The notes below the pieces were generated by a model that saw only the letters and a list, made by a program, of their open reading frames with translations, was not told where the DNA came from and did not search any database. This document shows, piece after piece, positions 1 to 14,455 of a stretch of DNA of 17,175 nucleotides. This DNA comes from a virus (Duplodnaviria; Heunggongvirae; Uroviricota; Caudoviricetes), in IMG/VR virus record IMGVR_UViG_2872180393_000002. One strand, written 5' to 3'. The number at the start of each line of letters is the position of its first letter. The first letter of the stretch is position 1. The position numbers were made by a program, and so were the translations under genes.

Positions 1-300
1 TTACCGCCGTAAGTGCTCCGGCTTCCTCCACTGGTAAGTATTTTTCGCGCTCTCCCTCCGTTGTTGAGAACGGCGACGATATGCCAGCAACTCAAGGACT
101 CTTGTTCGTATGTTGCGCATATCCACGCCGTTAAGCTCAATACCGTCACGGCGCATCACCTCAGCCACCACACGCGCGTAATTTTCAGCGGTGACGCTGT
201 CCGGCTGCGTGGCCACCTGTTTGCCTGTTGCCTGACAGATTCCGGTAATACGGCGGATTACTTTCAGTAGTTCGGCGTCGGTCATGGTTATGGTTTCCAT
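1..300 (-). CDS. hypothetical 99-aa protein with basic C-terminus, last gene of the element visible in the window
   Basis: Complete ORF with ATG at 298-300 and TAA at 1-3. It lies downstream of the capsid module terminator. No family recognised by eye. Confidence 0.45.
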   Translation of the reverse strand: METITMTDAELLKVIRRITGICQATGKQVATQPDSVTAENYARVVAEVMRRDGIELNGVDMRNIRTRVLELLAYRRRSQQRRESAKNTYQWRKPEHLRR

Positions 301-463
301 AGTGATGGGGGAACAATTTCTGTAATCTGCGAAGCTGGCGATCGGTCAGACTCAAATGCCTGGCAACTTCAGTCTGAGTAGCCACTGTTCACCTCGCCCA
401 AAAATCTCTCCTCATGCGTTTTAAACATGCATCTTGCGAACAACTTTATGAAACGCGGCATAT

Positions 464-560
464 ATGTCCGGTTTGAGTGTTCAATTTTTGCGCATGTCCG
501 GTTCGCAGAAAGCGCATTTCTATATTTTTCAAATGGTTAACCTTCAGAGAAACCGGACAT
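464..560. promoter_or_regulatory. triple 10-bp repeat ATGTCCGGTT (464-473 and 494-503 direct, 551-560 inverted): candidate protein-binding sites
   Basis: Three exact copies within about 100 bp, in non-coding DNA upstream of the 99-aa gene and downstream of the capsid module. Confidence 0.35.
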
Positions 561-641
561 GGTTTCCGAAAAATTTTCATAAATAGTGAAATTCTGCGCC
601 GCTCCCGCCCCGTGGCAGGCCACCCCACCGGAAGGACCCGC

Positions 642-670
642 AAAAAAAAGCCGGATTTCTCCGGCCTTTT
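642..670 (-). terminator. rho-independent terminator ending the capsid operon
   Basis: Hairpin GCCGGA-tttc-TCCGGC at 650-665, preceded on the plus strand by A8 (642-649), which is a U8 tail on the minus strand. It sits directly after the stop of the 137-aa gene. Confidence 0.6.
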
Positions 671-671: not shown

Positions 672-1085
672 TCAGATGGTTTTCAGTATGCGATCGATTT
701 CGCCGTCATCACCCTGATATCTGCCATCGTATGCCATGCCAGGGCTTACGGCCTGCGGGCTGTGCATGTCCATAAAGTTTTCAAAGGCTGCGGTAAGCTC
801 CGGCGCAACCTTCGGGCGTTCCTGCTCTATGGTCATGTTCAGGATTTCCCGGGCATTATCGACGCTAATACATGGCACGTTTGCCATTGCACGTAACAGC
901 GGCTGATAGTCGTCAGATTCATGAAGCGCCATAATCGCATCAGTGCGCGGCTTGTCCTGCTCTTCCAGTTTGTTAAGTTGATATATAGCCTCGTAGGTTG
1001 ATAAACCTCTGTCCGCCATTGCCCGCGCTTCGGCTTTAAATTTACTCGCCAGCGGTAGCGCCATGATAGCTTCATTGATTGCCAT
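672..1085 (-). CDS. hypothetical acidic 137-aa capsid-module protein (possible scaffold or size-determination role; function unknown)
   Basis: Start MAINEAIMA at 1083-1085 with an AGGGGA Shine-Dalgarno 5 nt upstream. The longer 158-aa ORF in the track would overlap the upstream gene. Co-operonic with the E-like and D-like genes. Confidence 0.55.
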   Translation of the reverse strand: MAINEAIMALPLASKFKAEARAMADRGLSTYEAIYQLNKLEEQDKPRTDAIMALHESDDYQPLLRAMANVPCISVDNAREILNMTIEQERPKVAPELTAAFENFMDMHSPQAVSPGMAYDGRYQGDDGEIDRILKTI

Positions 1086-1096
1086 CGTTCCCCTGC

Positions 1097-1387
1097 TTAT
1101 CGCACCAGTGGCTGAACGGATACGCCAGAACCCGCAAAAGCGGCGCATTTTTTCGCGTCGGTGTCGACGCTCTCGGGCCAGTTAACGGCGGCGATATTAA
1201 ATATCCCCGTCTTGTAACACTGTGCTGATTTCTGCTTTGACGTGTCCACGGGGTACGCCGTCAGATAAACAGCCTTGCCAGATTCCTGACCATCCCACGC
1301 CTTAAACTCGCCATTGTCCGCCAGCATCAGCGGAAAAATGTACCAGCGTCGTGGCAACCTGCTGTGTGCCTGCATATAACTCAACAT
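1097..1387 (-). CDS. head decoration protein, lambda gpD-like; apparently frameshifted at an A5 run (ancestral start probably 1400)
   Basis: Motifs PLML..AWDG..KTG..WPE..AFAG match lambda gpD. The ATG at 1398-1400 has a GGGAG RBS but is in another frame, which joins the D frame if one A is removed from the run at 1334-1338. Confidence 0.7.
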   Translation of the reverse strand: MLSYMQAHSRLPRRWYIFPLMLADNGEFKAWDGQESGKAVYLTAYPVDTSKQKSAQCYKTGIFNIAAVNWPESVDTDAKKCAAFAGSGVSVQPLVR

Positions 1388-1411
1388 ATGGAGTGCCCAT
1401 AGAATCTCCCG

Positions 1412-2467
1412 TTAACCAATTTTCACAGTAACAAATTTGCGGATATCTGCCGGAACCGGCTGCGGTGCGCTGTGCGTCTGCACGTACTCAATCGCCGGAT
1501 CGCCGCTCTCAATCCAGTTTTTCGGGTAGTACATGTTTTGCGTTGCGCCCGTTCTTACCGCTTCCGGATCCATAATCGCGCCATAGGCCACCAGACCTTT
1601 ATTGCTGGTGTTGCCCAGGACAAGCAAATCAGGCTCAAGGAAATATTTTTCGGTGCCGTCGCTGTCGGTGTATTTGCCGGAATAGACGATAAGGGCCAGA
1701 TCACCCAGATAGCCTTTAAAGCTCACCACTTCGCCCAGGTTTTTACACGCCAGCTCTGCGGCGGATTCTGAACCACGGGAAAGATCGTACAGCTCGCGGA
1801 ATTTTTTAAAGCTACGTAAGGTGCGCCATACGTCAGCGCCCATAATCATGACGTTGGCGGGGCAGCTGGCCTGTTCGGCGTATAGCTCGATGTCATCTGT
1901 CGGATCATGCGTCTCTTTATTCTGCTCAGACCATTTTTTTCCTGGCCCCTGATGGACAATGCAGTTTGCCGGCATATTCCAGTCGATTTCATAGCGTTCT
2001 ATGCCTTCGCCTTCAATGATGTTTTTTCCGGTCGTGACCGCATTCACTGCCAGCCATTCCACACGCGCTTTAATGGCGTTTATCTGGCGGCGCATGTTGC
2101 CAGTAATGAGGCGCATACGTCGCCAGGTGGGGTCGTTAAGCAGTGCCGGATCTTCTCCAGCCATGCGCATGATGGTTTTTGATGGATCGATTTCGTGTTT
2201 GGGTTTCATGTAGCCAGGGCGGGTAGTGCTTGTTTCGTACCCTTTATCACGCTGAACCTGGCTACCCACCACAGGCGAACAAAACGCCGACATGGTGACT
2301 TCTTCAATGTCCAGGGTATCCAGCATGACATCTTGTGTGTTGAAGGTTGCTACTTTCGGGAAAAACAGCGTGGTAAACAGCGGACTGAATTTAAATTCCG
2401 GGATATCCCCGCGATTCAGGTACGCGAAAAGCTGGTTAGTGTTAAGTGCCGTTGCTTTGTCTGCCAT
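1412..2467 (-). CDS. major capsid protein, lambda gpE family (HK97 fold), 351 aa
   Basis: Alignable by eye with lambda gpE along its length (KFKFSPLF, PGYMKPKHE, DPTDDIE, VSFKGYLGDLALIVYSG, VLGNT, YPKNW..TGDPA). Confidence 0.9.
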   Translation of the reverse strand: MADKATALNTNQLFAYLNRGDIPEFKFSPLFTTLFFPKVATFNTQDVMLDTLDIEEVTMSAFCSPVVGSQVQRDKGYETSTTRPGYMKPKHEIDPSKTIMRMAGEDPALLNDPTWRRMRLITGNMRRQINAIKARVEWLAVNAVTTGKNIIEGEGIERYEIDWNMPANCIVHQGPGKKWSEQNKETHDPTDDIELYAEQASCPANVMIMGADVWRTLRSFKKFRELYDLSRGSESAAELACKNLGEVVSFKGYLGDLALIVYSGKYTDSDGTEKYFLEPDLLVLGNTSNKGLVAYGAIMDPEAVRTGATQNMYYPKNWIESGDPAIEYVQTHSAPQPVPADIRKFVTVKIG

Positions 2468-2672
2468 TATTCACCCCATGAGTCTGATTCATGCCAAGCG
2501 CCGCACGTAAATAGGCGCGTACCTGCCAGCCTGTTGACGGCTCAACCATCGCCAGCGGATCAAGTCCTGCCGCAATGCCCGCTTTTACGTTCTGCTGGTG
2601 GCGTTCCTTGAGCGCCTCCACGATATCGGGGCTTATGTAAACTGTCACCCCGCCTTTTTTCTCTTCTGTCAT
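2442..2672 (-). CDS. hypothetical 76-aa protein, first gene of the capsid operon
   Basis: ATG at 2670-2672 with an AGAGGA RBS. It overlaps the E-like start by 26 nt. No family recognised. Confidence 0.4.
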   Translation of the reverse strand: MTEEKKGGVTVYISPDIVEALKERHQQNVKAGIAAGLDPLAMVEPSTGWQVRAYLRAALGMNQTHGVNNGRQSNGT

Positions 2673-2699
2673 AGTCAGAAATTCCTCTTCGACTTAAAA

Positions 2700-2757
2700 A
2701 ATTATAACTGGATGTACATCCAGTTATAATTATAATCATAGTTGCATTTTGTGCAAT
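2700..2757 (-). promoter_or_regulatory. sigma70-like promoter (TTGCAC-16-TATAAT, minus strand) overlapped by a perfect 32-bp palindromic operator AATTATAACTGGATGTACATCCAGTTATAATT (2700-2731)
   Basis: Perfect dyad centred at 2715/2716. The -10 lies at 2729-2734 and the -35 at 2751-2756 on the minus strand, so the palindrome covers the -10 and the predicted transcription start of the capsid operon. Confidence 0.5.
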
Positions 2758-2944
2758 AGAATTGAGTTGCATTGCAAATTATGAAATGATTTACGGCAAC
2801 AGTAGTCACCATGCTGTTAACCTCGTAAGCAAAAGCCCGATAAGCTTCCTCCTGTACTTATCGTAAGCGCCCCATCAGCGACGTCTTGTGAAAATTGTCC
2901 TGTCTGGCAACAATCGCGCCCATCTATATTGATGGACACGAACG

Positions 2945-3619
2945 ATGAATTCCCAGACAACAAAAGATATTCCCTGCTTCCGTTCTTATTTGCCTGATGC
3001 CCTGCGTTTAAGATTTGAAGATAAACTGACCATCCGGGCCATCGCTCAGCGTCTGGGTCTCAGTCATTCCACAATACATACGCTTTTTCAGCGATTTCTT
3101 GCATCCGGTATCGCATGGCCATTGCCCGATTCAGTTTCATTCGCTCAACTTGACGCCATCCTTTATGCCAACAGAAAGAAGGAATTAACAGAGCCTCAAA
3201 TCAGAGAAGGCTCATGGCGAAAAGAACGGCGAACCAGCTATAGCCGTGAATTTAAGGTCCGTCTGGCTAAGCAGGCGTTACAGCCTGGGGCTGTTGTTGC
3301 CCGGATCGCCAGAGAACACGATATCAATGATAACCTGCTGTTTAAATGGAAAAGCCAGTACGAGGACGGCTTACTGAGCGATGATGACATACAGGAATGC
3401 ATGCCTGTCCCGGTGGCACTGACTGATACGCCGGAGCCGACCAGACCAGTTACAAATCCCTTCTGGCGTAACAAGCATGATGAGCGCCCTGAGGGGGCTC
3501 CCGGAAACGTCCCACGGTGCGAGCTGCATCTTAAATCAGGTGTGGTAAAACTGTTTGACCCTCTCACTCCGGAACTGTTACGGGCGCTAATCCGCGAAAT
3601 GAAAGGGGGTATCCGATGA
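2945..3619 (+). CDS. IS66-family TnpA (helix-turn-helix accessory protein), 224 aa
   Basis: First ORF of the IS66 unit, with an IS66 orf1-like HTH region (SYSREFKVRLAKQAL..ARIAREHDINDNLLFKWKSQY). ATGA overlap with tnpB. Confidence 0.8.
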   Translation: MNSQTTKDIPCFRSYLPDALRLRFEDKLTIRAIAQRLGLSHSTIHTLFQRFLASGIAWPLPDSVSFAQLDAILYANRKKELTEPQIREGSWRKERRTSYSREFKVRLAKQALQPGAVVARIAREHDINDNLLFKWKSQYEDGLLSDDDIQECMPVPVALTDTPEPTRPVTNPFWRNKHDERPEGAPGNVPRCELHLKSGVVKLFDPLTPELLRALIREMKGGIR

Positions 3620-3963
3620 TAACGCTGCCGACCGGTACCAAAATCTGGATCATCGCTGGCATCACAGATATGCGTTGTGGCTTCAATGGCCTGGCTTCGA
3701 AGGTGCAGAACACGCTGAAAGATGACCCGTTCTCCGGGCATATCTTCGTCTTCCGGGGCCGCAGTGGCAAAATGGTGAAAATACTGTGGGCCGATCGTGA
3801 CGGGTTATGCCTGTTCGCCAAACGCCTGGAACGGGGCCGCTTCGTCTGGCCGGTGACCCGGGAAGGGAAAGTGCACCTGACGCCAGCTCAGTTATCCATG
3901 CTACTGGAGGGGATCGCGTGGCAACATCCAAAACGGACAGAACGGCCTGGCATCCGGATATAA
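3616..3963 (+). CDS. IS66-family TnpB (orf2), 115 aa
   Basis: Characteristic IS66 orf2 sequence (MRCGFNGLA..FVFRGRSGKMVKILWADRDGLCLFAKRLE). Confidence 0.9.
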   Translation: MITLPTGTKIWIIAGITDMRCGFNGLASKVQNTLKDDPFSGHIFVFRGRSGKMVKILWADRDGLCLFAKRLERGRFVWPVTREGKVHLTPAQLSMLLEGIAWQHPKRTERPGIRI

Positions 3964-3982
3964 CCCGTGATAAAACAAGGGA

Positions 3983-5584
3983 ATGAACAATGAACTCCCC
4001 GATGATATTGAGCTGCTTAAAGCCATGTTGCGTAAGCAACAGAGTCGGCTTCGACAGTATGCCTGTCAGGTCGCGGGCTATGAGCAGGAAATTGAACGGC
4101 TGAAAGCGCAACTCGACAGGTTGCGTCGTATGTTGTTCGGCCAGAGTTCAGAGAAAAAGCGTCATAAGCTTGAAAATCAGATCCGACAGGCAGAAAAACG
4201 ACTGTCGGAACTGGAAAACCGGCTGAACACAGCCAGAAATCTTCTGGAAGATGCATCGTCAGTCACAGATTCACCTGACACCAGTCCCCCGTCAGAAAAC
4301 CCGATCGCCAGTAAGCCTGAATCCCCGGGACGAAAATCTTCACGAAAACCGCTGCCGGCAGAACTTCCCCGGGAGACACATCGCCTTCTGCCTGCTGAAA
4401 CCAGTTGCCCGGCCTGTGGAGGTGTTCTGAAAGAAATGGGGGAAACAATCTCAGAGCAACTGGATATCATTAATACCGCCTTTAAAGTTATCGAAACCAT
4501 ACGTCCCAAACTGGCCTGTAGCCGGTGTGATGTCATCGTTCAGGCACCACTTCCCCCTAAACCGATCGAACGCGGTTATGCCAGTGCAGAGTTACTTGCA
4601 CGGATCCTGGTCAGCAAATATATGGAACATATCCCTTTATATCGCCAGTCAGAAATATACGCGCGACAGGGCGTGGAGCTGAGCCGTAATACCATGGTGC
4701 GCTGGGTATCAGAAATGGCAGACAAACTCCGTCCTCTGTATATAGCGCTGAATGACTATGTTCTGGAGGCAGGAAAGGTGCACGCAGATGACACTCCGGT
4801 GAAAGTACTGGCCCCGGGGAACGGAAAGACGAAAACGGGTCGTCTGTGGGTATACGTCAGGGATGATCGTAATGCGGGTTCATCCCTGCCGGCAGCCGTC
4901 TGGTTCGCGTATTCGGCAGATCGCAAAGGAGAACATCCGCAGCGCCACCTGGCAAAGTATCAGGGCGTACTGCAGGCTGATGCCTATGCAGGTTATAACG
5001 TACTGTACGAAACGGGCCGGGTGAAGGAAGCCGGGTGCCAGGCCCACGCCCGCCGAAAAATCCATGACGAGGATGTGCGCCGTCCGACAGAAATGACTCA
5101 GGAAGCGCTCAGACGGATAGCAGAGTTATACGACATAGAAGCGGAGATACGTGGCAGTCCGGCAGAGGAACGGCTTGCAGTCAGAAAAGCCAGAAGCGTC
5201 CAGTTGATGCAGTCGTTGTACGACTGGATACAGTTGCAGAGGAAAACGCTGTCGAAACATGCGGAGATGGCGAAGGCGTTCGACTATATCCTGAATCACT
5301 GGAATGCGCTGAACGAGTTCTGTCGTGACGGCTGGGTGGAAATAGACAACAACATCGGTGAAAACGCGTTACGATCGGTGGCGGTTGGAAGAAAAAATTA
5401 TCTCTTTTTCGGCTCAGACAAGGGAGGAGAAAGTGCGGCGATCATCTACAGTCTGCAGGTCACCTGCAAACAGAACGAAGTGGAGCCGGAGGACTGGTTG
5501 CGCGAAGTGATCGAGAAGCTCAATGACTGGCCGTCGAACCAAGTGCATGAACTGCTGCCCTGGAACTTCTCGTCTGTAAAATAA
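3983..5584 (+). CDS. IS66-family transposase TnpC (DDE), 533 aa
   Basis: N-terminal leucine zipper, CxxC..CxxC zinc finger, and a DDE core typical of IS66 TnpC. Confidence 0.9.
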
Positions 5585-5641
5585 TCCTTACGCTACGTAC
5601 TTCTCGGGGCGCTTACTACTTATCGGGCTTTTTTTGGGTAC

Positions 5642-5671: not shown

Positions 5672-6054
5672 TCAGAACGGAATATCATCACCGTAGGGGT
5701 CATCGTCTCCCGCTGGTGGCTGATTACCCTGTGTGCCTGTGGTTTTGCGTCTGTTCCCGCCAGGGCGTGCCGCTCGGGCACTGATTACGCTGTCGGCAAT
5801 AACCTGATAACCCTGCCGCGTTTCCCCGTTCTGTCCGGTCCACTGGCTGACCTGCATCGTGCCGGATACGCTGGCAACGTCGCCTTTTTGATGTTTAGCC
5901 AGGAAGTCGGCCTGCTTACCAAATGCCATCACCGATAGCCATAACGTCGCCTGTCCGTCCTGTGCCTGGCTGCATGGCAGCGATACCGCCATACGCGCCA
6001 GCGTCATCGGTGTGCCCTTGCTGGTCTGTTTTACCTGCGGGTCGTCCACCAACC
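5672..6054 (-). pseudogene. ssb: single-stranded DNA-binding protein, C-terminal 128 codons; gene interrupted by IS600-like copy A
   Basis: OB-fold core resembling E. coli SSB (W..V..FGK.A...KG...W) and the canonical acidic tail DDDPYGDDIPF. The N-terminus of the 143-aa ORF in the track is read through from the IS end. Confidence 0.8.
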
Positions 6055-6118
6055 TGAGGTAGCCTGAGTTTAACGGACACTCCTTCCTGAAATAGAATGG
6101 CATCAGAAGGAGCTAATA

Positions 6119-6421
6119 ATGAGCAGAAAAACCCAACGTTACTCTAAAGAGTTCAAAGCCGAAGCTGTCAGAACGGTTCTTGAAAATCAACTTTCGATCA
6201 GTGAAGGCGCTTCCCGATTATCCCTTCCTGAAGGCACTTTAGGACAATGGGTTACCGCCGCCAGAAAAGGGCTCGGTACTCCTGGTTCCCGCACGGTGGC
6301 TGAACTGGAATCTGAAATTCTGCAACTGCGTAAGGCGTTAAATGAAGCTCGCCTTGAGCGAGATATATTAAAAAAAGCAACAGCGTATTTTGCACAGGAG
6401 TCGCTGAAAAATACGCGTTAA
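6119..6421 (+). CDS. IS3-family OrfA (HTH), IS600-like
   Basis: 100-aa ORF with an IS3-type HTH and leucine zipper, identical in all three copies. Confidence 0.9.
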   Translation: MSRKTQRYSKEFKAEAVRTVLENQLSISEGASRLSLPEGTLGQWVTAARKGLGTPGSRTVAELESEILQLRKALNEARLERDILKKATAYFAQESLKNTR

Positions 6422-6456
6422 TCGAACAATGGCGACAACAATTTCCCATTGAAGCG

Positions 6457-7275
6457 ATGTGTCAGGTATTTGGTGTATCCAGGAGCGGTTATTACAACTG
6501 GGTACAGCATGAACCCTCAGACAGAAAACAAAGTGATGAGCGGCTAAAACTGGAGATTAAGGTGGCACATATCCGCACTCGCGAAACATATGGAACCCGG
6601 CGGCTCCAGACGGAGCTGGCAGAGAATGGCATCATCGTTGGTCGTGACCGACTGGCACGTCTTCGTAAGGAGCTAAGGCTACGCTGTAAGCAGAAACGCA
6701 AGTTCAGAGCGACTACGAACCCGAACCACAATCTGCCAGTTGCGCCAAATCTGCTGAACCAGACGTTCGCTCCTACAGCACCAAATCAGGTCTGGGTGGC
6801 GGACCTGACGTATGTTGCCACACAGGAGGGATGGTTGTACCTAGCTGGCATCAAAGATGTTTATACGTGCGAAATTGTCGGCTACGCCATGGGAGAGCGC
6901 ATGACAAAAGAGCTGACAGGTAAAGCCCTGTTTATGGCGCTCAGGAGCCAGCGCCCACCTGCCGGGCTAATCCACCACTCTGATCGAGGTTCACAGTACT
7001 GCGCATACGATTACCGGGTCATACAGGAGCAGTTTGGTCTGAAAACATCAATGTCGCGTAAAGGTAACTGTTACGACAACGCTCCGATGGAAAGCTTCTG
7101 GGGAACGCTGAAAAATGAGAGCCTGAGCCACTATCGTTTTAATAACCGGGATGAAGACATCTCAGTAATACGGGAATACATTGAGATTTTCTACAATCGT
7201 CAGCGTCGTCACTCTCGTCTGGGGAATATCTCCCCGGCAGCCTTCAGGGAAAAATATCATCATATGGCTGCTTAA
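6457..7275 (+). CDS. IS3-family OrfB (DDE integrase-type transposase catalytic domain); expressed as an OrfAB fusion by -1 frameshifting
   Basis: DDE / rve-type motifs (WVADLTY..., HHSDRGSQY..., NAPMESFWGTLKNE). The frame is open upstream of the first ATG back to the slippery site. Confidence 0.9.
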   Translation: MCQVFGVSRSGYYNWVQHEPSDRKQSDERLKLEIKVAHIRTRETYGTRRLQTELAENGIIVGRDRLARLRKELRLRCKQKRKFRATTNPNHNLPVAPNLLNQTFAPTAPNQVWVADLTYVATQEGWLYLAGIKDVYTCEIVGYAMGERMTKELTGKALFMALRSQRPPAGLIHHSDRGSQYCAYDYRVIQEQFGLKTSMSRKGNCYDNAPMESFWGTLKNESLSHYRFNNRDEDISVIREYIEIFYNRQRRHSRLGNISPAAFREKYHHMAA

Positions 7276-7318
7276 AAAAAGAACAAATGGTAGTGTCCGC
7301 TATTGCCAGTACACCTCA

Positions 7319-7349
7319 ACCGTCCGTAAGCTGCTATCTGTGCTGTCAT
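7319..7349 (-). pseudogene. ssb: ssb N-terminal fragment (first 10 codons, MTAQIAAYGR), separated from the rest by IS600-like copy A
   Basis: ATG at 7347-7349 with a GAGGTGG RBS. Removing the IS and one copy of the ACC duplication restores one continuous SSB frame. Confidence 0.7.
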
Positions 7350-7544
7350 GATTCCACCTCTCCGGTTTTAACGTTGATGGTTGTTACCTGTTCCGCTTCG
7401 GCAATCTCCCGTTCTGTCAGCGTGGCAAAGTTTGCCGCTGCTGTGGTCATGAATGCGCTTATCAGGTCGGGATGTTCCTTCGCGTATCCTTCCCCGCGTG
7501 GCGGTCTATCGTTCTGATTGCCACCTTTAAAGCGTGCTCTGTCA
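7346..7544 (-). other. two candidate micro-ORFs (7461-7544, 27 codons; 7346-7450, 34 codons) upstream of ssb, the second overlapping the ssb start in an ATGA arrangement
   Basis: Open frames only. Ribosome-binding sites are weak and no family is recognisable. Confidence 0.2.
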
Positions 7545-7671
7545 TGTCTAACGCGCGATATTTCGGTTCTGTTCTGTCTCTGCGTTTTTTGAGTGATTTA
7601 TTAAATTTTCCTGAAGTGTGCATGTTTATTTTTACCCCCTCGTTTAAAAAGTTTTGAGTTGTGCCTCCCCT

Positions 7672-7887
7672 TGTCTACCTTATCTACCTTGCTGGCCCTC
7701 ATGCCAGTAATGGCGCGGCTTTCAGCGGGGTAGAGTGCTTTTATCCACTATCTACCCCGTGTCTACCTCCCTGTCTGATTCAGGTAAAATCAGGTAGAGA
7801 GGGTAGATAGTGGGTAGACAGTAAAAAAAGCTGTCTACCTAACTTAATGTACTGAATTAAATGTATTTTCCTTTGCTCAGGTAGACA
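7672..7887. repeat. iteron array, putative replication origin: 8-bp motif TGTCTACC / TATCTACC in both orientations, with a flanking AT-rich region
   Basis: Direct copies at 7672, 7681, 7749, 7760 and 7832. Inverted copies (GGTAGACA / GGTAGATA / GGTAGAG) at 7728, 7793, 7802, 7813 and 7880. The array lies immediately 3' of the primase-helicase gene. Confidence 0.6.
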
Positions 7888-7901
7888 GCAATTACAAAAA
7901 A

Positions 7902-8246
7902 TTATAAAAACGCGTCGCACTCGTCTGTTGTTATTGCGTTAGTCTGCGTTACCCCCTTAACTTTCCGCGTAATATATTCATGTCCGTAAACTTTTGCGGC
8001 AGGCTTCATAGCCTTGCCAAAGTCATTTACGTTTAGCGGTTTGCTCCTGCCTGCGTATGCCATAAACGCCAGATAGACGCGGTAAAGGCTGTTCCTGGTC
8101 GTGTACTTCACTGAATCACCACCGCCACCCATCATCAGGCCGCGCGCTTCCTCCAGAAAATTCAGGAACTGGCAAAACTCAATAACCGGATCCGTCTGTT
8201 GCTTTATTGCCAGTGCTTCATCACCGTCACGCTGTTCCAGTAGTAA
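7902..8246 (-). pseudogene. primase-helicase C-terminal fragment (about 115 codons, candidate origin-binding domain), cut off by IS600-like copy B
   Basis: Removing the IS and one TAA duplication joins this frame (LLLEQRDGDEALAIKQ...TTDECDAFL) in phase to the ORF at 9511-10923. Confidence 0.7.
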
Positions 8247-8289
8247 TGAGGTGTACTGGCAATAGCGGACACTACCATTTGTTCTTTTT

Positions 8290-9108
8290 TTAAGCAGCCA
8301 TCTGATGATATTTTTCCCTGAAGGCTGCCGGGGAGATATTCCCCAGACGAGAGTGACGACGCTGACGATTGTAGAAAATCTCAATGTATTCCCGTATTAC
8401 TGAGATGGCTTCATCCCGGTTATTAAAACGATAGTGGCTCAGGCTCTCATTTTTCAGCGTTCCCCAGAAGCTTTCCATCGGAGCGTTGTCGTAACAGTTA
8501 CCTTTACGCGACATTGATGTTTTCAGACCAAACTGCTCCTGTATGACCCGGTAATCGTATGCGCAGTACTGTGAACCTCGATCAGAGTGGTGGATTAGCC
8601 CGGCAGGTGGGCGCTGGCTCCTGAGCGCCATAAACAGGGCTTTACCTGTCAGCTCTTTTGTCATGCGCTCTCCCATGGCGTAGCCGACAATTTCGCACGT
8701 ATAAACATCTTTGATGCCAGCTAGGTACAACCATCCCTCCTGTGTGGCAACATACGTCAGGTCCGCCACCCAGACCTGATTTGGTGCTGTAGGAGCGAAC
8801 GTCTGGTTCAGCAGATTTGGCGCAACTGGCAGATTGTGGTTCGGGTTCGTAGTCGCTCTGAACTTGCGTTTCTGCTTACAGCGTAGCCTTAGCTCCTTAC
8901 GAAGACGTGCCAGTCGGTCACGACCAACGATGATGCCATTCTCTGCCAGCTCCGTCTGGAGCCGCCGGGTTCCATATGTTTCGCGAGTGCGGATATGTGC
9001 CACCTTAATCTCCAGTTTTAGCCGCTCATCACTTTGTTTTCTGTCTGAGGGTTCATGCTGTACCCGGTTGTAATAACCGCTCCTGGATACACCAAATACC
9101 TGACACAT
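8290..9108 (-). CDS. IS3-family OrfB (DDE), copy B
   Basis: Matches copy A except for point differences (W to R near the N-terminus, D to A, H to Q near the C-terminus). Confidence 0.9.
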   Translation of the reverse strand: MCQVFGVSRSGYYNRVQHEPSDRKQSDERLKLEIKVAHIRTRETYGTRRLQTELAENGIIVGRDRLARLRKELRLRCKQKRKFRATTNPNHNLPVAPNLLNQTFAPTAPNQVWVADLTYVATQEGWLYLAGIKDVYTCEIVGYAMGERMTKELTGKALFMALRSQRPPAGLIHHSDRGSQYCAYDYRVIQEQFGLKTSMSRKGNCYDNAPMESFWGTLKNESLSHYRFNNRDEAISVIREYIEIFYNRQRRHSRLGNISPAAFREKYHQMAA

Positions 9109-9143
9109 CGCTTCAATGGGAAATTGTTGTCGCCATTGTTCGA

Positions 9144-9446
9144 TTAACGCGTATTTTTCAGCGACTCCTGTGCAAAATACGCTGTTGCTTTTTTTAATAT
9201 ATCTCGCTCAAGGCGAGCTTCATTTAACGCCTTACGCAGTTGCAGAATTTCAGATTCCAGTTCAGCCACCGTGCGGGAACCAGGAGTACCGAGCCCTTTT
9301 CTGGCGGCGGTAACCCATTGTCCTAAAGTGCCTTCAGGAAGGGATAATCGGGAAGCGCCTTCACTGATCGAAAGTTGATTTTCAAGAACCGTTCTGACAG
9401 CTTCGGCTTTGAACTCTTTAGAGTAACGTTGGGTTTTTCTGCTCAT
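9144..9446 (-). CDS. IS3-family OrfA, copy B
   Basis: Identical to OrfA of copy A. Confidence 0.9.
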   Translation of the reverse strand: MSRKTQRYSKEFKAEAVRTVLENQLSISEGASRLSLPEGTLGQWVTAARKGLGTPGSRTVAELESEILQLRKALNEARLERDILKKATAYFAQESLKNTR

Positions 9447-9507
9447 TATTAGCTCCTTCTGATGCCATTCTATTTCAGGAAGGAGTGTCCGTTAAACTCA
9501 GGCTACC

Positions 9508-10923
9508 TCATAAAGCCCGTGCCTTCTCAGGGTCGGTAAAGTTCGCCAGCAATCGGCGGATAATAACGGGGATTTCAGCCGCAATCTTTTCCGGTAGCTC
9601 CCTGTCTTTTTCGGCCTCACTGACGATATTGTCGAAACGGAAAATCACGCGACGACGTGCCACACCTCCGGCCCGTTCGGTGAATATCATCGGGTTGTTG
9701 TCGGTCGCCAGCACCACCGCCCTGATTACCGCCGTGAAACGCTTTTCATATTTCGGGTTAATTTCCACGGGGTCGCCGCCCGTGATTTTCTTGATGCCCG
9801 TTCCTTCGCCTGTATATTTCGGCTGGTCAGCCAGGACGATAAGACGACTCCCGACAACCTGCGCACGTCCACCAGCATCATCAAGCGATGTCATTTCAGC
9901 GCTTACCGTGTTCTGTTTCCCTGCCAGAAGGCTGGCTATGTGTGTGAATGTACTTTTACCGCTCCCGCCGTCTCCGGTGGCCTCAATAAACATCTGCCAG
10001 TCGTACCGGTTCGCCATAATCATGTAAAGCGCGGCACATATGCGCATCATCTTGCGCGGGTCTTTTCCGGCTGCGTGATCAAGCCATTTATGAAAGTTTG
10101 GCGCGTTGTCGCGGATATTCTCCCCTGGTGCTGGTGGCGTGTACTCAATGCCGTTGTGCGTGGTGATCCAGTTCTCCGGCGTGTGCGGGGAAAATTCCCC
10201 CGTTTTCAGGTTAAGCACACCATTAGTGAACGGTAGCAAATCACTGGACGGCTCGCCCATCGGGTCAGCAATAACTTTTAACGCTTCAACGGCGTTATTA
10301 ATTGCCCGCTTGCTGAATGTGGCCCCGTGTTCTGAATAAACCGCCACCATTTCGCGGCTCAGTTCCATTGTGCTGACCGGACACCATATCCCGCCGCGCC
10401 ATACGTGAACGATTTCACTTTCCGGATGCACACAAACGCCATCAAATCGACCAGCAAGCATCTGTGCGCGCTCACTGTCTGCCATCTGCGAAAGTTGCGC
10501 CTTTTGCTTTACCGGAAGCTCAATGACCAGACCATCAGAAAGATTCTGGCGTTCACGGGCCAGATATTCGCGCCAGTTCTGCACCTCCTGGCCGTGCATA
10601 CCCTCAAGATAAAAATTTGCATCCTGTACACCTGCCGCCGCCAGCTTCTGACCAATCGCCTTGATCATTACAGGCTCAAGATGTCCGGCTCTGTATATGC
10701 GTGCTGATTTTCTGCCATCCGGCACAATTTGCAGATTATCCAGTTCGGATAGCTGCTGCTCTCCAAGCCACACAGGAGGCTCATTATCTCCGGCTGTACG
10801 CGCGTCATGTTCCTGCCACTGTTTCGCGTGTGCCCAGGCATCACTACCCGCAAAGATAATTACCTCTGTGTCTTTGTGTTTTATTCCGCGTGGCTGTTTT
10901 TTTACGTTCGGTGCCAGTTTCAT
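9508..10923 (-). pseudogene. replication protein: N-terminal primase-associated region, D5_N-like region and SF3 (P4-alpha / D5-type) helicase with Walker A GDGGSGKST; truncated, with its stop codon supplied by the IS end
   Basis: Walker A and downstream SF3 motifs. The stop TGA is the complement of the terminal TCA of the IS at 9508-9510. Confidence 0.8.
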
Positions 10924-11057
10924 TTTTTACCCCTGAATACGTTAAGCATCTTTTTTATTTCCTGAATATTGGCGCGTGCTTTCTCCCTGCTGGTGGGCAC
11001 GTTACGCGGTACGGCCTGCACAAGAGAAAAATCACGGTCGAACTGATAAACAGGCAT
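10920..11057 (-). CDS. hypothetical 45-aa protein, translationally coupled to the primase-helicase (ATGA overlap)
   Basis: Open frame MPVYQFDRDF...; its stop overlaps the primase ATG. Below the ORF track's length cutoff. Confidence 0.3.
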   Translation of the reverse strand: MPVYQFDRDFSLVQAVPRNVPTSREKARANIQEIKKMLNVFRGKK

Positions 11058-11069
11058 CACGCAATCATA

Positions 11070-11219
11070 TTAGTAGCCTTCACGACGGTAGGTTACGCGC
11101 CGTTCCTCCACGCCCTTAATTATTACCGTGCCGCCGTACTTATCGCGGTAAATATCCCCGCGCATGAATTTAGTGCGAGTTTTGCCGCTGGCAGTTAAGC
11201 CAGGATATTTAAGTTTCAT
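11070..11219 (-). CDS. hypothetical 49-aa basic protein
   Basis: Open frame MKLKYPGLTASGKTRTKF... with a GGAG RBS. Sits in the operon between the 77-aa gene and the primase. Confidence 0.3.
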   Translation of the reverse strand: MKLKYPGLTASGKTRTKFMRGDIYRDKYGGTVIIKGVEERRVTYRREGY

Positions 11220-11224
11220 TATTT

Positions 11225-11458
11225 TTATTCTCCGGTGTGGGGCGCTTTATACTGGTCGTGTAATGTCTCTATTTCCTGCAACTCATTTATTACAGGCTCA
11301 AGAAGCGTTATTAATGCCGTGACAATCCTTGATTTCTGTTTATCACGCTCATTATCGCCAAATGTTTCCAGACACATTTGCAATATTTCCAACATATTTT
11401 CACTGTGAGAAAGTGCAAGAAATGCGCGGTCTGTTATTTCAATGTAAATATCACGCAT
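11225..11458 (-). CDS. hypothetical acidic 77-aa protein, first gene of the replication operon
   Basis: Bounded ORF with an upstream in-frame stop at 11471-11473 and a GGGG RBS. No family recognised. Confidence 0.45.
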   Translation of the reverse strand: MRDIYIEITDRAFLALSHSENMLEILQMCLETFGDNERDKQKSRIVTALITLLEPVINELQEIETLHDQYKAPHTGE

Positions 11459-11495
11459 AACCCCGTTACTTTATTCGTACCTCTTATAATGGGGT

Positions 11496-11691
11496 GTTAG
11501 CCAGCCAGACCCGGCATGATTACTGCCCCCAGTCGTCCATGATCCGGGGGGTGATGTCACCGGGTCTGGTGGGGCGCTGGTAACCGCTAATAGGGGTCAG
11601 GTCAGGCACTTTTGCCGGGACCGTCTGTAACGTGGATGCCGGTACCTGCTCCCCGTGGTTATCTGGTTAACCCATATACAAGGGAGACAGA
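11496..11691 (+). ncRNA. candidate IS110-type guide (bridge) RNA in the non-coding left end
   Basis: About 200 nt of structured non-coding DNA 5' of the recombinase gene, with a 10-bp stem CCAGACCCGG (11505-11514) / CCGGGTCTGG (11560-11569) and internal repeats. Based on position and structure only. Confidence 0.3.
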
Positions 11692-12915
11692 ATGACCGAA
11701 TCCAGCGATTACGAATCCGTCCAGGTCTTTATCGGCGTTGATGTCGGTAAAGATACGCATCACGCTGTTGCCATTAATCGTTCAGGTAAACGCCTGTTCG
11801 ATAAAGCATTACCCAACGACGAAAACAAACTCAGGTCGCTAATATCTGACCTGAAACAACATGGTCAGATACTTCTGGTTGTTGATCAGCCAGCTACCAT
11901 CGGTGCGTTACCTGTCGCCGTTGCCCGCTCAGAAGGAGTCCTTGTCGGATACCTCCCTGGACTGGCCATGCGCCGCATAGCCGACTTACACGCCGGTGAA
12001 GCTAAAACTGATGCTCGTGACGCTGCCATCATTGCCGAAGCTGCCCGTACCCTGCCTCACGCGCTACGCACGCTGAAACTGGCTGACGAGCAAATCGCCG
12101 AACTCTCCATGCTCTGCGGCTTCGATGATGATCTTGCCGCACAGACAACGCAGGCCAGCAACCGTATCCGCGGCCTTCTGACCCAGATACATCCGGCACT
12201 GGAGCGCGTTCTCGGTCCGAGACTTGAGCACCCGGCGGTACTCGATCTTCTCCAGCGATATCCCTCACCAGAAAAACTCGCTTCGCTGGGTGAGAAGAAG
12301 CTGGCAGCCCAGCTCTGCAAACTTGCGCCTCGTCTGGGTAAACGCCTTGCAGCAGACATAGCTCAGGCACTGGCCGAACAAACCGTCGTCGTTCCCGGCA
12401 CGAATGCCGCTGCCGTAGTACTGCCACGTCTGGCACTCCAGCTCATCACGCTGCGTAAGCAAAGAGACGAGGTGGCGCTTGAGGTAGAACAGCGAGTTCT
12501 TGCTCACCCTCTTTACCCGGTCCTGACCAGTATGCCCGGAGTCGGTGTCAGGACCGCAGCCAGACTCCTCACCGAGGTCGCCTGCCGCGCCTTCGCCTCT
12601 GCCGCACATCTCGCTGCTTATGCTGGCCTTGCGCCGGTAACTCGGCGATCCGGCTCGTCAATACGCGGTGAGCATCCCTCGCGACGGGGTAATAAAGCTC
12701 TCAAACGGGCGTTGTTCCTGTCGGCCTTCGCCGCGCTCAGGGATCCGCTCTCCAGGGCTTACTACACCCGCAAAATGAGTCAGGGAAAACGACACAATCA
12801 GGCGCTTATCGCCCTGGCGAATACGGGCCGCGAATACAGCAACACAACCGGACGGGCAATGGTTACGCGCTTCGCGTTCAGTCCAGGCGGTGACGTGGAT
12901 GATTTGGGACTCTGA
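11692..12915 (+). CDS. IS110-family recombinase/transposase (N-terminal DEDD RuvC-like domain, C-terminal Tnp domain), 407 aa
   Basis: N-terminal IGVDVGKDTHH motif, helix-hairpin-helix MPGVGVRTAARLL, and C-terminal RRSGSSIRGEH..ALKRALFLSAF serine motif. AGGGAG RBS. Confidence 0.9.
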   Translation: MTESSDYESVQVFIGVDVGKDTHHAVAINRSGKRLFDKALPNDENKLRSLISDLKQHGQILLVVDQPATIGALPVAVARSEGVLVGYLPGLAMRRIADLHAGEAKTDARDAAIIAEAARTLPHALRTLKLADEQIAELSMLCGFDDDLAAQTTQASNRIRGLLTQIHPALERVLGPRLEHPAVLDLLQRYPSPEKLASLGEKKLAAQLCKLAPRLGKRLAADIAQALAEQTVVVPGTNAAAVVLPRLALQLITLRKQRDEVALEVEQRVLAHPLYPVLTSMPGVGVRTAARLLTEVACRAFASAAHLAAYAGLAPVTRRSGSSIRGEHPSRRGNKALKRALFLSAFAALRDPLSRAYYTRKMSQGKRHNQALIALANTGREYSNTTGRAMVTRFAFSPGGDVDDLGL

Positions 12916-13149
12916 CGCACCAAAGGCGATAAAGCGCCAGAGAAAGGCGGTTTGAGAATGTACAAGGGTAGGGGTAGTAGCCATGTCGGCAGCCTCCTTG
13001 ATTGATGGAATGTAACCACCGCCGGAGGTCCTAAGCTCGCTGGCGGTGGACTGTACAGGGTTAGGACTACTGGCAATCAAGGGAACCAGCCTACCCGAAG
13101 GTAGCCCCATACAGCCCACCATTGTATAGGTGTGCGTGTGCGTCGATAC

Positions 13150-13171
13150 AAAAAAAGACGCGTGCGGCGTC
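13150..13171 (-). terminator. candidate rho-independent terminator on the minus strand inside a roughly 500-bp non-coding, structured region
   Basis: Hairpin GACGC-gtgcg-GCGTC at 13157-13171, preceded on the plus strand by A7 (13150-13156), which is a U7 tail on the minus strand. Confidence 0.3.
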
Positions 13172-13432
13172 TGTATCGCCTCGATTGTCAGCGGGGTCCT
13201 AATCCCGGCACCCGTTTTATAAGGTGCACGCGAATCATAGCCTTGGCTGGCAGTGGCGATCAACTGGTTTTTCATACCCGCTTTATTCAGGTTGTGCGAG
13301 TCCCGCCCTTGCAGGTGTGTGGTATGATTTAACATAGCTACCTCGATACTGTTGCTATCGTTGGTGGTTAGACGCCCTGCATGTGTTGCGAGCACTGCGG
13401 GGCGTTGCTTAATTTGAGTGACAAAACTCAAA

Positions 13433-13512
13433 CTGCGCGCACAGATTAAAATCATGTGTGCGCACATGTCAATACTTAACATCTCATTTTTTTTGCTGTA
13501 TTGTGTGCGCCC
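13433..13512. promoter_or_regulatory. cluster of TGTGCGCAC-type palindromic operator-like sites upstream of the 65-aa gene
   Basis: CTGCGCGCACAG at 13433-13444, near-palindrome CATGTGTGCGCACATG at 13453-13468, and TTGTGTGCGCCC at 13501-13512. Confidence 0.4.
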
Positions 13513-13540
13513 ATAAAGTCCATTTAAGTGAGGTGCATCA

Positions 13541-13738
13541 ATGTCTAGCGGTAACACAAACAACAAATCAGCAAAGAAAAATATTCGATTCCCACATGAG
13601 CTTATAGATGGGGTTTATGCCAGCGTTGAACAAGAAAAATTAACTAATCCTAGTGCTAATTTTTCCGCATGGGTCTTAGATGCCTGTGGACGCAAATTAA
13701 AATATGAACAGCGCCGGAAGGCCAAAGAATCAGAATAA
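13541..13738 (+). CDS. small 65-aa DNA-binding-like protein (ribbon-helix-helix-like pattern); candidate regulator
   Basis: GTGAGG RBS 7 nt upstream. The pattern KNIRFPHELIDGV followed by two predicted helices resembles RHH regulators. Assigned by eye only. Confidence 0.45.
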   Translation: MSSGNTNNKSAKKNIRFPHELIDGVYASVEQEKLTNPSANFSAWVLDACGRKLKYEQRRKAKESE

Positions 13739-13762
13739 TCACTATCAGCGCCGTGGCGTGAG

Positions 13763-13975
13763 GTGCTACGGCGCATTGCTTTACAGGTACACACAATGAC
13801 CAACAAAGAATCAACCAATACACCATCGCAAAAAACGAACAGAGAGCACGAAAATATGGCGCTCGAGCATGAATCAGAAAGATTCGCACCATGTGCTTTT
13901 GCCCTTGAGCAATTCCTTAAAGAGTACAGGGAAACGCGCTCATTGCAGGTATGGCAACGAACTGAACCAGCCTGA
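13763..13975 (+). CDS. hypothetical protein of 59-70 aa (likely start MTNKES..)
   Basis: Open frame downstream of the 65-aa gene, convergent with alpA. No family recognised. Confidence 0.3.
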   Translation: MLRRIALQVHTMTNKESTNTPSQKTNREHENMALEHESERFAPCAFALEQFLKEYRETRSLQVWQRTEPA

Positions 13976-14048
13976 TAGCGTCTATCATCCCCGTGCTTAT
14001 GTTTGGGATCACATACACATAAGGCGCAGCGGGTTAATTGTTCAGAAA

Positions 14049-14076
14049 GGCGGCTCCATATCGGGGCCGCTTTTTT
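14049..14076 (+). terminator. weak candidate terminator for the plus-strand small genes
   Basis: 5-bp stem GCGGC/GCCGC around an 11-nt loop, followed by T6 (14071-14076). Confidence 0.25.
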
Positions 14077-14102
14077 CGTGTTTGTCATATCTGTGATACC
14101 CG

Positions 14103-14309: not shown

Positions 14310-14421
14310 CGTGATTTACCTTGTGAATCCGGTGTATTCCGGTGACAAATACGGTAAATCATCGGATATGGGTAAAAACAGTTCCCACCGTTTTTATATT
14401 GATGATTTGAAATGGAATTAT

Positions 14422-14444
14422 AAAAAAAGCGGCATTTCTGCCGC
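14422..14444 (-). terminator. rho-independent terminator between the 83-aa ORF and alpA
   Basis: Hairpin GCGGCA-tttc-TGCCGC at 14429-14444, preceded on the plus strand by A7 (14422-14428), which is a U7 tail on the minus strand. Confidence 0.6.
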
Positions 14445-14455
14445 TTCCAGGATTG

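What the first reader, a model, noticed from the sequence alone, without database searches (positions are those of the whole stretch)
672..2757. Self-contained mini capsid module (E-like major capsid plus D-like decoration) outside any lambdoid late-operon context
In lambda, D and E sit in the middle of a long late operon with no promoter of their own, in the order D then E. Here the order is orf76, E-like, D-like, orf137, and the unit has its own near-consensus promoter, a 32-bp operator and a strong terminator. It is flanked by replication genes, not terminase, portal or tail genes. This would fit a satellite that supplies its own capsid shell proteins and relies on a helper for the rest, which would differ from the P4 Sid mechanism as I understand it.
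Basis: inference. Interest (0 to 1): 0.85.

Follow-up and report, generated by a model that had tools for sequence, protein, structure and literature searches.

The report
Capsid-gene operon of a decayed PICI satellite
The small capsid gene cluster is real, but it is the already described capsid-homologue operon of an E. coli phage satellite (the EcCICFT073-type PICI family), here in a copy broken by insertion sequences and a frameshift.

Summary
Window 642-2777 (minus strand) is one transcription unit. It has a promoter, a 32-bp palindrome, orf76, a lambda-E-family capsid gene, a lambda-D-family gene, orf137 and a terminator. The unit has the same gene order as c1499-c1501 of EcCICFT073, the model Gram-negative phage-inducible chromosomal island (PICI). 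Its capsid protein matches PDB 3BQW (CFT073) at E 1e-216, and 596 of 5,426 complete E. coli genomes carry the whole unit. The sequence left of the window holds chromosomal genes, not a head-tail operon. No GenBank phage capsid protein is more than 46.5% identical. So "satellite" is right, but the family and its capsid genes were published in 2018. In that work, deleting c1499 or c1500 gave no phenotype and packaged DNA was phage-sized.

- The D-like gene has a frameshifting 32-bp deletion.
- Five IS copies split int, primase and ssb.
- A cos site and a 24-codon terS stub follow the terminator.

New details:
- The palindrome holds a strong, conserved LexA-type SOS box.
- orf137 is related to the Nu3-type scaffold C-terminus.
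- dN/dS of about 0.13 shows that the capsid genes are maintained by selection.

Their role is still unknown. Interest is low.

The parts
2742..2777 (-). Two TTGCA/TGCAA inverted repeats (2767-2777 and 2742-2756). The second overlaps the -35. Candidate site for an unknown regulator.
   Evidence: Read from the sequence. Conserved in 8 E. coli loci and in the Salmonella, Pluralibacter and Edwardsiella PICIs. Function not tested.
2729..2756 (-). Module promoter: -35 TTGCAC (2751-2756), 16-nt spacer, -10 TATAAT (2729-2734).
   Evidence: Sequence. The -10 and its flanks are conserved, exactly in 7 of the 8 E. coli loci aligned. The consensus scan did not report it because the -35 matches only 3 of 6.
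2700..2731 (.). 32-bp perfect palindrome whose core (2706-2725, AACTGGATGTACATCCAGTT) is a LexA-type SOS box over the predicted transcription start.
   Evidence: Palindrome. It is the only ACTG-N10-CAGT in the window. Heterology index is 4.58 against a matrix of 28 E. coli boxes recalled from memory (training median 6.0), and 0 of 100 shuffles did as well. The box is kept in 7 of 8 E. coli loci, and in Pluralibacter (5.77) and Salmonella (7.88) although the flanks have diverged.
2442..2672 (-). orf76, the homologue of the 68-aa gene whose end overlaps the capsid-gene start in intact islands. The C-terminus is altered here by a frame change at the last codons. Function unknown.
   Evidence: phrog_3255, unknown function. 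AlphaFold2 model with alignment has pLDDT 72 and a beta-alpha-alpha layout. No significant fold match. dN/dS is about 0.2-0.35.
1412..2467 (-). Intact lambda-E-family major capsid protein homologue, 351 aa (the c1499 homologue).
   Evidence: Pfam PF03864 at 2.8e-48. PDB 3BQW (CFT073) at E 1.2e-216 and the lambda-family capsid chain 7VI9 at 3e-82. 45% identity to a CFT073 prophage E protein. At most 46.5% identity to any of 50,697 phage records. dN/dS is 0.13.
1097..1400 (-). Lambda-D-family head decoration gene (the c1500 homologue), inactivated by a 32-bp deletion at about 1334/1335.
   Evidence: Pfam PF02924 at 9.4e-15. Alignments to the intact 111-aa homologues. The true frame gives 32 aa and then a stop. 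dN/dS of the intact homologues is 0.14.
672..1085 (-). orf137 (the c1501 homologue): a helical protein related to the C-terminal scaffold region (Nu3-type) of lambdoid S49 prohead proteases.
   Evidence: BLASTP gives 35% identity over 83 aa, E 9e-10, to residues 416-493 of a CFT073 prophage S49 peptidase. Matches the C-terminus of phrog_53 at 8.8e-10. The bridging protein P0042 hits phrog_53, phrog_8399 (head scaffolding) and phrog_1999, which is the orf137 family. The supplement of PMC6092414 lists c1501 as 137 aa.
642..666 (-). Intrinsic terminator closing the module: stem GCCGGA/TCCGGC, loop GAAA, T8.
   Evidence: Conserved in EcCICFT073, ATCC 25922 and FDAARGOS_943.
440..640 (-). cos site: cosQ-like sequence, cosN variant GGGCGGGAGCGG (599-610) and three CCGGACAT R-like elements (553-560, 494-501, 464-471).
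   Evidence: Sequence. Alignments to prophage cos regions. The site is mosaic: the cosQ/cosN half matches the cos of a prophage whose small terminase is a DUF1441 protein, and the cosB half matches the cos of a Nu1-type prophage.
314..385 (-). 24-codon stub of a lambdoid terS gene (VATQTEVARHLSLTDRQLRRLQKL). It sits where other PICIs carry rpp or a full terS.
   Evidence: The slot holds rppA in EcCICFT073 and a 180-aa terS in ATCC 25922 and EC4115.
1..300 (-). orf99 (94-99 aa), the conserved last gene of E. coli PICIs. Function unknown.
   Evidence: phrog_1561 at 6.5e-49. No PDB or Pfam match. Most of the 2,354 genomes matched match only part of the query, and the partial hits listed include many confined to window 1-311. 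dN/dS is 0.21.
2864..5618 (+). IS66-family element inserted in the loop of the terminator hairpin that separates the replication genes from the module.
   Evidence: The hairpin arms are split at 5619-5632 and 2831-2844. IS66 ORFs.
5672..17110 (-). Rest of the island: ssb (N-terminus cut by an IS3-family copy at 6055-7318); primase split by a second copy (8247-9510); an IS110-family element carrying the 11692-12915 transposase ORF; alpA-like gene at 14103-14309; P4-type integrase split by a third IS3-family copy (15553-16815).

Best explanation
Window 642-2777 is the capsid-homologue operon of a classical cos-type Gram-negative PICI of the EcCICFT073 family. This copy is decayed and sits in the yejO/narP/ccm chromosomal region, where the intact relative in FDAARGOS_943 adjoins a tRNA-Pro gene.

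Shown here:
- The operon has its own promoter and terminator.
- It encodes a 68-aa protein, an E-family capsid protein, a D-family decoration protein and a Nu3-scaffold-related protein.
- In relatives these genes are under purifying selection.
- A cos site follows directly, and after it comes the slot that holds rpp or terS in other islands.

Inferred:
- LexA represses the promoter through the SOS box at the transcription start. The operon would then switch on with the same DNA-damage signal that induces the helper prophage. This parallels the LexA-controlled operon I of SaPIs.
- The three head-shell proteins enter the helper's head-assembly pathway, using the helper's portal, protease, terminase and tail. 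They would be optional shell subunits, not a self-sufficient capsid. I rate this step at only about 0.35. Published knockouts show that the capsid and decoration genes are dispensable with the helpers tried.
- This particular copy is inactive. D is frameshifted; int, primase and ssb are cut by IS elements; there is no rpp or terS.
For: - Identity: gene order and 88-93% nucleotide identity to EcCICFT073 and other E. coli PICIs. The capsid protein matches PDB 3BQW from CFT073 at E 1.2e-216.
- Spread: the whole unit is present in 596 of 5,426 complete E. coli genomes. The orf68-capsid-D trio also occurs in Salmonella, Pluralibacter and Edwardsiella PICIs.
- The left flank is chromosomal.
- Selection: dN/dS is 0.13-0.29.
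- SOS box: heterology index 4.58, 0 of 100 shuffles as good, and conserved across genera.
- Scaffold relation of orf137.
- cos site and terS stub.
- Literature on the family: PMC6092414, PMC6739421 and PMC10111431.
Against: - For EcCICFT073, deleting c1499 or c1500 changed neither transfer nor lambda interference, and packaged DNA was phage-sized (PMC6092414). No capsid-related role has therefore been demonstrated.
- The LexA matrix was built from boxes I recalled from memory, and binding was not tested.
- The box is absent from two divergent lineages, E. coli CFIAFB20180511 and Edwardsiella.
- alpA expression in the model island does not depend on SOS, so SOS control of another operon of the island would be a new claim.
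- The scaffold relation of orf137 rests on about 30-35% identity over 80-115 residues, and the structure model is poor (pLDDT 45).
Confidence: 0.8

Rival explanations
1. The module is a capsid-size redirection system like Ccm of SaPIbov5. The satellite capsid homologue, with its scaffold-like partner, would force small capsids that exclude the helper genome.
For: A satellite-encoded capsid homologue plus a scaffold-related protein. PmCI172, another Gram-negative PICI with a capsid homologue, makes small capsids (PMC6092414). Purifying selection.
Against: With lambda as helper, all DNA packaged in the presence of EcCICFT073 was phage-sized. The c1499 and c1500 deletions did not relieve interference. 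When cloned singly, only c1503 (rppA) blocked lambda.
Confidence: 0.15
2. The genes are captured helper late genes. They are kept as spare copies for islands that integrate inside prophage late genes, and are otherwise neutral cargo.
For: The same trio lies in PICIs embedded in a prophage portal gene (Edwardsiella L015) and in a terminase gene (Salmonella L019). PMC10111431 proposes this backup role.
Against: The capsid protein is no more than 46.5% identical to any phage capsid protein, so the capture is not recent. dN/dS of 0.13 and the dedicated conserved promoter argue against neutral cargo. Most E. coli copies examined lie at chromosomal sites.
Confidence: 0.2
3. The 32-bp palindrome is the operator of a PICI- or helper-encoded regulator and only resembles a LexA box.
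For: The palindrome extends 6 bp beyond the 20-bp box on each side. Conserved TTGCA/TGCAA repeats nearby suggest a second regulator. Two lineages lack the box but keep those repeats.
Against: The heterology index is better than the median of known boxes, and no shuffle matched it. The CTGGAT/ATCCAG half-sites are kept, while the flanks and the position change, in Pluralibacter and Salmonella.
Confidence: 0.25
4. The module is a leftover fragment of a lambdoid prophage head operon, or part of a capsid-forming PICI (cf-PICI) that makes complete heads.
For: E- and D-family genes, a cos site and a terS fragment.
Against: The gene order is E then D, the reverse of the prophages seen in CFT073. Identity to prophage E is 45%. 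No portal, protease, large terminase or connector gene is found in the window, in its left flank, or in intact relatives.
Confidence: 0.03

Closest known systems
EcCICFT073, the model classical cos PICI of E. coli CFT073 (Fillol-Salom et al. 2018, 2019)
   Same: Same gene order from int to the last gene. Same 68-aa gene, capsid (c1499), decoration (c1500) and 137-aa (c1501) operon, with the same promoter, palindrome and terminator. A cos site lies directly after it.
   Different: The window's island has no rppA and no inverted second cos site, but a terS stub and a mosaic cos. It sits in the yejO/narP/ccm region (next to a tRNA-Pro gene in the intact relative), not between roxA and phoQ as in CFT073. 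It carries five IS copies and a frameshifted D gene.
SaPI operon I and Ccm of SaPIbov5 (Staphylococcus aureus PICIs)
   Same: A satellite operon for morphogenesis and packaging under LexA control (Ubeda 2007, cited in PMC6092414). A satellite-encoded homologue of the helper capsid protein, Ccm.
   Different: There is no sequence relation. Ccm makes small capsids, whereas EcCICFT073 is reported to be packaged in full-size heads. LexA control is only predicted here.
Capsid-forming PICIs (cf-PICIs, e.g. EcCIEDL933)
   Same: Same int, alpA and rep backbone, and a capsid gene carried by the satellite.
   Different: cf-PICIs also carry portal, protease, connectors, HNH and both terminase subunits, and build their own small heads. 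None of these genes is present here.
Lambda head genes Nu3, D and E
   Same: The same three protein families.
   Different: The order is E, D, then the Nu3-like gene. The module has its own promoter and only about 38-46% identity. orf137 keeps only part of the scaffold region and has no protease domain.
Satellite phage P4 (Sid, Psu)
   Same: P4-type integrase, AlpA-like regulator, alpha-like primase, cos-based piracy of a helper.
   Different: No Sid, Psu or Delta homologue among the ORFs examined. The capsid genes are true capsid and decoration homologues, not an external scaffold.

Membership tests
Classical Gram-negative PICI (EcCICFT073 type) | Tyrosine integrase at one end with an AlpA-type regulator next to it, co-oriented with the rest of the island | tested here: met
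   The integrase is present but split by an IS3-family copy: C-terminal part at 14785-15552 (Pfam Phage_integrase, 4e-29), with N-terminal-looking ORF fragments beyond the IS at about 16813-17110. The AlpA-like ORF is at 14103-14309, with a weak Pfam match (0.0035) and phrog_66 at 5.5e-7.
Classical Gram-negative PICI (EcCICFT073 type) | Own primase/replication gene followed by ssb | tested here: met
   Primase at 9508-10923 with D5_N and DUF5906 domains and phrog_864 at 2.5e-144. ssb at 5672-6103. Both are cut by IS copies.
Classical Gram-negative PICI (EcCICFT073 type) | Size of about 10-15 kb and no complete set of phage structural or lysis genes | tested here: met
   Intact relatives are about 11-12 kb. 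Only capsid, decoration and scaffold-like homologues are present.
Classical Gram-negative PICI (EcCICFT073 type) | Packaging device that exploits a cos helper: a cos site, with rpp or terS | tested here: inconclusive
   A cos site is present at about 440-640. Neither rpp nor a full terS is present, only a 24-codon terS stub. The same state is seen in FDAARGOS_943.
Classical Gram-negative PICI (EcCICFT073 type) | Helper-induced excision, replication and high-frequency transfer | not testable with these tools
   Shown for EcCICFT073 in PMC6092414. This copy has broken int and primase genes, so activity is unlikely.
Capsid-forming PICI (cf-PICI) | Portal, prohead protease, head-tail connectors, HNH, TerS and TerL encoded by the island | tested here: not met
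   None found in the window, its left flank or intact relatives.
Lambdoid prophage head operon (remnant) | D then E order inside a contiguous Nu1-A-W-B-C-D-E-FI operon, and close identity to phage genes | tested here: not met
   The order is reversed. Identity to prophage E is 45%, and no more than 46.5% to any phage record. The flanks are chromosomal or replication genes.
P4-like satellite | Sid, Psu, Delta and Eps marker genes | tested here: not met
   No such family among the Pfam and PHROG hits of the ORFs examined. Not every small ORF was scanned.
LexA (SOS) regulon promoter | A 20-bp CTG-N10-CAG palindrome with a low heterology index that overlaps the promoter | tested here: met
   AACTGGATGTACATCCAGTT at 2706-2725, 4-23 nt downstream of the -10. 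Heterology index 4.58; 0 of 100 shuffles as good. The matrix was built from memory.
LexA (SOS) regulon promoter | LexA binding and DNA-damage-dependent derepression | not testable with these tools
   No experiment was found in the papers searched.
Nu3-type internal scaffold | Sequence relation to the C-terminal scaffold region of lambdoid prohead protease/Nu3 proteins | tested here: met
   with E values from 9e-10 to 2e-10 in pairwise comparisons. P0042 links phrog_1999 to the scaffold families.
Nu3-type internal scaffold | Binds the capsid protein and is needed for procapsid assembly | not testable with these tools
   The structure model is poor (pLDDT 45). No multimer prediction is available.

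The most novel reading that the evidence does not exclude
The orf68, E, D and Nu3-like operon could be an SOS-gated 'shell kit'. With certain natural helpers, classical cos PICIs would build part or all of the head shell, possibly a smaller one, from their own subunits on the helper's portal. That would be a step between classical PICIs and capsid-forming PICIs. The published negative results cover only lambda, phi80 and one CFT073 prophage.
Probability: 0.2. Interest if true: 0.6.

Novelty: already known. Interest (0 to 1): 0.2.

Why it matters
Finding this module in the window changes nothing. It is one more copy, and a dead one, of a published satellite family present in about a tenth of complete E. 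coli genomes.

The open question belongs to the family. These satellites keep capsid, decoration and scaffold-like genes under purifying selection, yet laboratory knockouts of the capsid and decoration genes show no phenotype.

Two details found here make that question easier to test:
- A predicted LexA box on the module promoter suggests when the genes are expressed.
- The scaffold relation of c1501/orf137 suggests that all three proteins act in head assembly.

Tried and rejected
1. I suspected that the published knockouts were made in islands whose module was already disrupted (c1501::tetA). Rejected: the primer arms in the supplement place tetA just after the c1501 stop codon, so c1501 stays intact.
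2. orf137 or orf99 as Rpp. Rejected: rppA is a separate 144-aa gene between c1501 and the last gene in CFT073, and neither ORF matches any PDB chain.
3. The RefSeq name 'phage head-tail connector protein' for orf137 homologues. No Pfam or NCBIfam model supports it.
4. Two scans of species-representative genomes with the capsid protein and with an alignment of it found nothing. I reached other genera through orf68 homologues instead.
5. AlphaFold2 on orf137 without an alignment gave pLDDT 45, which is unusable.
7. A full-library search with orf137 found only 8 relatives.
8. The consensus promoter scan did not report the promoter. I read it by eye and supported it by conservation.
Full report
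**What is in the sequence**

On the minus strand, window 2777 to 642 is one compact unit.
- It starts with a promoter whose -10 is a perfect TATAAT (2729-2734) and whose -35 is weak.
- A perfect 32-bp palindrome follows (2700-2731).
- Then come a ribosome-binding site and orf76 (2442-2672).
- The 351-aa capsid gene is at 1412-2467 (Pfam Phage_cap_E, E 2.8e-48).
- A lambda-D-family gene is at 1097-1400 (Pfam HDPD, E 9.4e-15).
- orf137 is at 672-1085.
- A hairpin with a T8 run closes the unit (642-666).

**Corrections to the observation**

The D-like gene is broken. Compared with three intact 111-aa homologues, it lacks 32 bp between two CCGCTGATGCTGGCG repeats. The true start codon (1400) now gives 32 residues and a stop. 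The 96-aa ORF begins in another frame.

orf76 is the usual 68-aa gene with a frame change in its last codons.

The region after the terminator is not empty.
- It holds a lambda-like cos site with a cosQ-like sequence, the cosN variant GGGCGGGAGCGG and three CCGGACAT repeats.
- It also holds the first 24 codons of a lambdoid small-terminase gene.

An IS66 element (2864-5618) sits in the loop of the terminator hairpin that once separated ssb from the module.

**What it is**

The capsid protein matches PDB 3BQW, 'putative capsid protein of prophage' from E. coli CFT073, at E 1.2e-216. In CFT073 that gene lies in an 11-kb island with this gene order:
- int and an AlpA-type regulator;
- a primase and ssb;
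- perC;
- a 68-aa gene, then the capsid gene, the decoration gene and a 137-aa gene;
- a 144-aa gene;
- a final 93-aa gene.

This island is EcCICFT073, the model Gram-negative phage-inducible chromosomal island. Its capsid gene is c1499, its decoration gene c1500 and its 137-aa gene c1501 (PMC6092414). The 144-aa gene is rppA, which redirects the helper's small terminase to the island's cos site (PMC6739421).

The rest of the window carries the same backbone: a P4-type integrase, an AlpA-like gene, a D5_N/DUF5906 primase and ssb. It is cut by three IS3-family copies, one IS66 and one IS110-family element.

Leftward extension. Window 1-12467 is 100% identical to GenBank CP026846.1. Beyond the window's left end lie a 143-aa ORF, an IS4, a yejO-type autotransporter, narP and ccmH. 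No head-tail operon is there. Intact relatives end the same way.

Identity to a prophage copy. The capsid protein is 45% identical to a CFT073 prophage E protein. No record among 50,697 phage genomes exceeds 46.5%. The module is therefore not a recent recombination fragment.

Survey of related genomes. The whole unit is present in 596 of 5,426 complete E. coli genomes at 88-93.5% nucleotide identity. These include O157:H7 EC4115, 042, ATCC 25922 and Nissle 1917. The orf68, capsid and decoration trio also occurs in PICIs of Salmonella, Pluralibacter and Edwardsiella. Two of these islands are embedded inside prophage late genes. That arrangement was described in PMC10111431, which also reports a capsid gene in 21 of 29 reference Gram-negative PICIs.

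**What is known about function**

In EcCICFT073, deleting c1499 or c1500 changed neither transfer nor interference with lambda. The authors state that they found no phenotype for c1499. All DNA packaged with lambda was phage-sized. Transfer required the helper's TerS. When the genes after the origin were cloned one at a time, only rppA blocked lambda.

I checked whether those tests had been done in a module already disrupted by the c1501::tetA marker. The primer arms show that the marker sits just after the c1501 stop codon, so c1501 is intact and the published tests stand.

**What I can add**

1. Selection. Across seven E. coli islands, dN/dS is 0.13 for the capsid gene. It is 0.14 for the decoration gene, 0.29 for orf137 and about 0.2 for orf68 and the last gene. 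The proteins are being maintained.

2. orf137 is related to the lambdoid internal scaffold.
- It aligns with residues 416-493 of a 501-aa prophage S49 prohead protease (35% identity, E 9e-10).
- It matches the C-terminus of the PHROG head-maturation-protease family.
- A 195-aa protein found in a full-library search links the orf137 family to the PHROG scaffold families.
- The RefSeq label 'head-tail connector' has no model support.

3. The core of the palindrome, AACTGGATGTACATCCAGTT, is a LexA-type SOS box.
- Its heterology index is 4.58, against a matrix of 28 E. coli boxes that I recalled from memory. The median for those boxes is 6.0.
- It is the best site in the window, and 0 of 100 shuffles did as well.
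- It lies over the predicted transcription start.
- It is kept in 7 of 8 E. coli islands.
- It is also kept in Pluralibacter (5.77) and Salmonella (7.88), where the flanks and its exact position differ.
- It is missing from one divergent E. coli island and from the Edwardsiella island.
- In the papers I searched, LexA appears with EcCICFT073 only in the reference lists of the two papers I opened; I did not open the third.
- The parallel is SaPI operon I, which is LexA-controlled.

4. The packaging slot varies between islands. It holds rppA in CFT073 and 042, a full terS in EC4115 and ATCC 25922, and only a terS stub here and in FDAARGOS_943.

5. The cos site here is a mosaic. Its cosQ/cosN half matches a prophage with a DUF1441-type small terminase, and its cosB half matches a Nu1-type prophage.

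**Most likely mechanism**

The operon is the satellite's own capsid-protein unit. I infer that LexA represses it and that the DNA-damage signal that induces the helper switches it on. I also infer, at about 0.35, that its three head-shell proteins join the helper's head assembly as optional subunits. The helper would supply the portal, protease, terminase and tail.

The rival explanations are size redirection like Ccm, spare copies for islands embedded in helper late genes, and a non-LexA operator. A prophage remnant or a capsid-forming PICI is excluded by the gene content of intact relatives.

**Verdict**

However, the family, its capsid and decoration genes and even a crystal structure are already published. 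The idea that the island supplies its own shell is not supported for the model member. This copy is inactive. The novelty class is 'already known' and interest is low. The only open point concerns the family as a whole: what these conserved capsid genes are for.

Noticed in passing
window 440-640 and 314-385 (minus strand): The cos site is a mosaic. The cosQ/cosN half, with the variant cohesive-end sequence GGGCGGGAGCGG, matches the cos of a prophage with a DUF1441-type small terminase and a protease-capsid fusion protein. The cosB half and the 24-codon terS stub match a Nu1-type lambdoid prophage. This island lineage has neither rpp nor a full terS.
   Followed up: partly
window 14767-14786: A second, weaker LexA-like box (TACTGGTTTTCTGTACAGCT, heterology index 8.05-8.87) overlaps the integrase stop codon, upstream of an 83-aa ORF and the AlpA-like gene.
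   Followed up: no
window 2742-2777: Two TTGCA/TGCAA inverted repeats lie at and upstream of the -35 of the module promoter. They are conserved even in the Edwardsiella island and in the divergent E. coli island, both of which lack the LexA box. They may be the site of an unknown regulator.
   Followed up: partly
window 2831-2844 and 5619-5632: IS66 inserted in the loop of a terminator hairpin (AAAAGCCCGATAAG / CTTATCGGGCTTTT). A short duplicated CGATAAG at the junction looks like a target-site duplication.
   Followed up: partly
window 6055-7318, 8247-9510, 15553-16815: Three nearly identical IS3-family copies (orfA 100 aa, orfB 272 aa) cut ssb, the primase and the integrase. With IS66 and an IS110-family element, that makes five insertions in one island of about 12 kb, a Shigella-like pattern of decay.
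   Followed up: partly
L015 1-16213 (Edwardsiella tarda) and L019 (Salmonella): PICIs with the same orf68, capsid and decoration trio sit inside a prophage portal gene (L015) and a large-terminase gene (L019). In L015 the prophage's own decoration and capsid genes lie just downstream.
   Followed up: partly
window 1-300 (orf99): Many of the partial hits listed cover only this last gene (window 1-311). Overall 2,354 of 5,426 genomes matched some part of window 1-2950, against 596 for the capsid module, so this gene appears far more widespread than the module. Its function is unknown.
   Followed up: no
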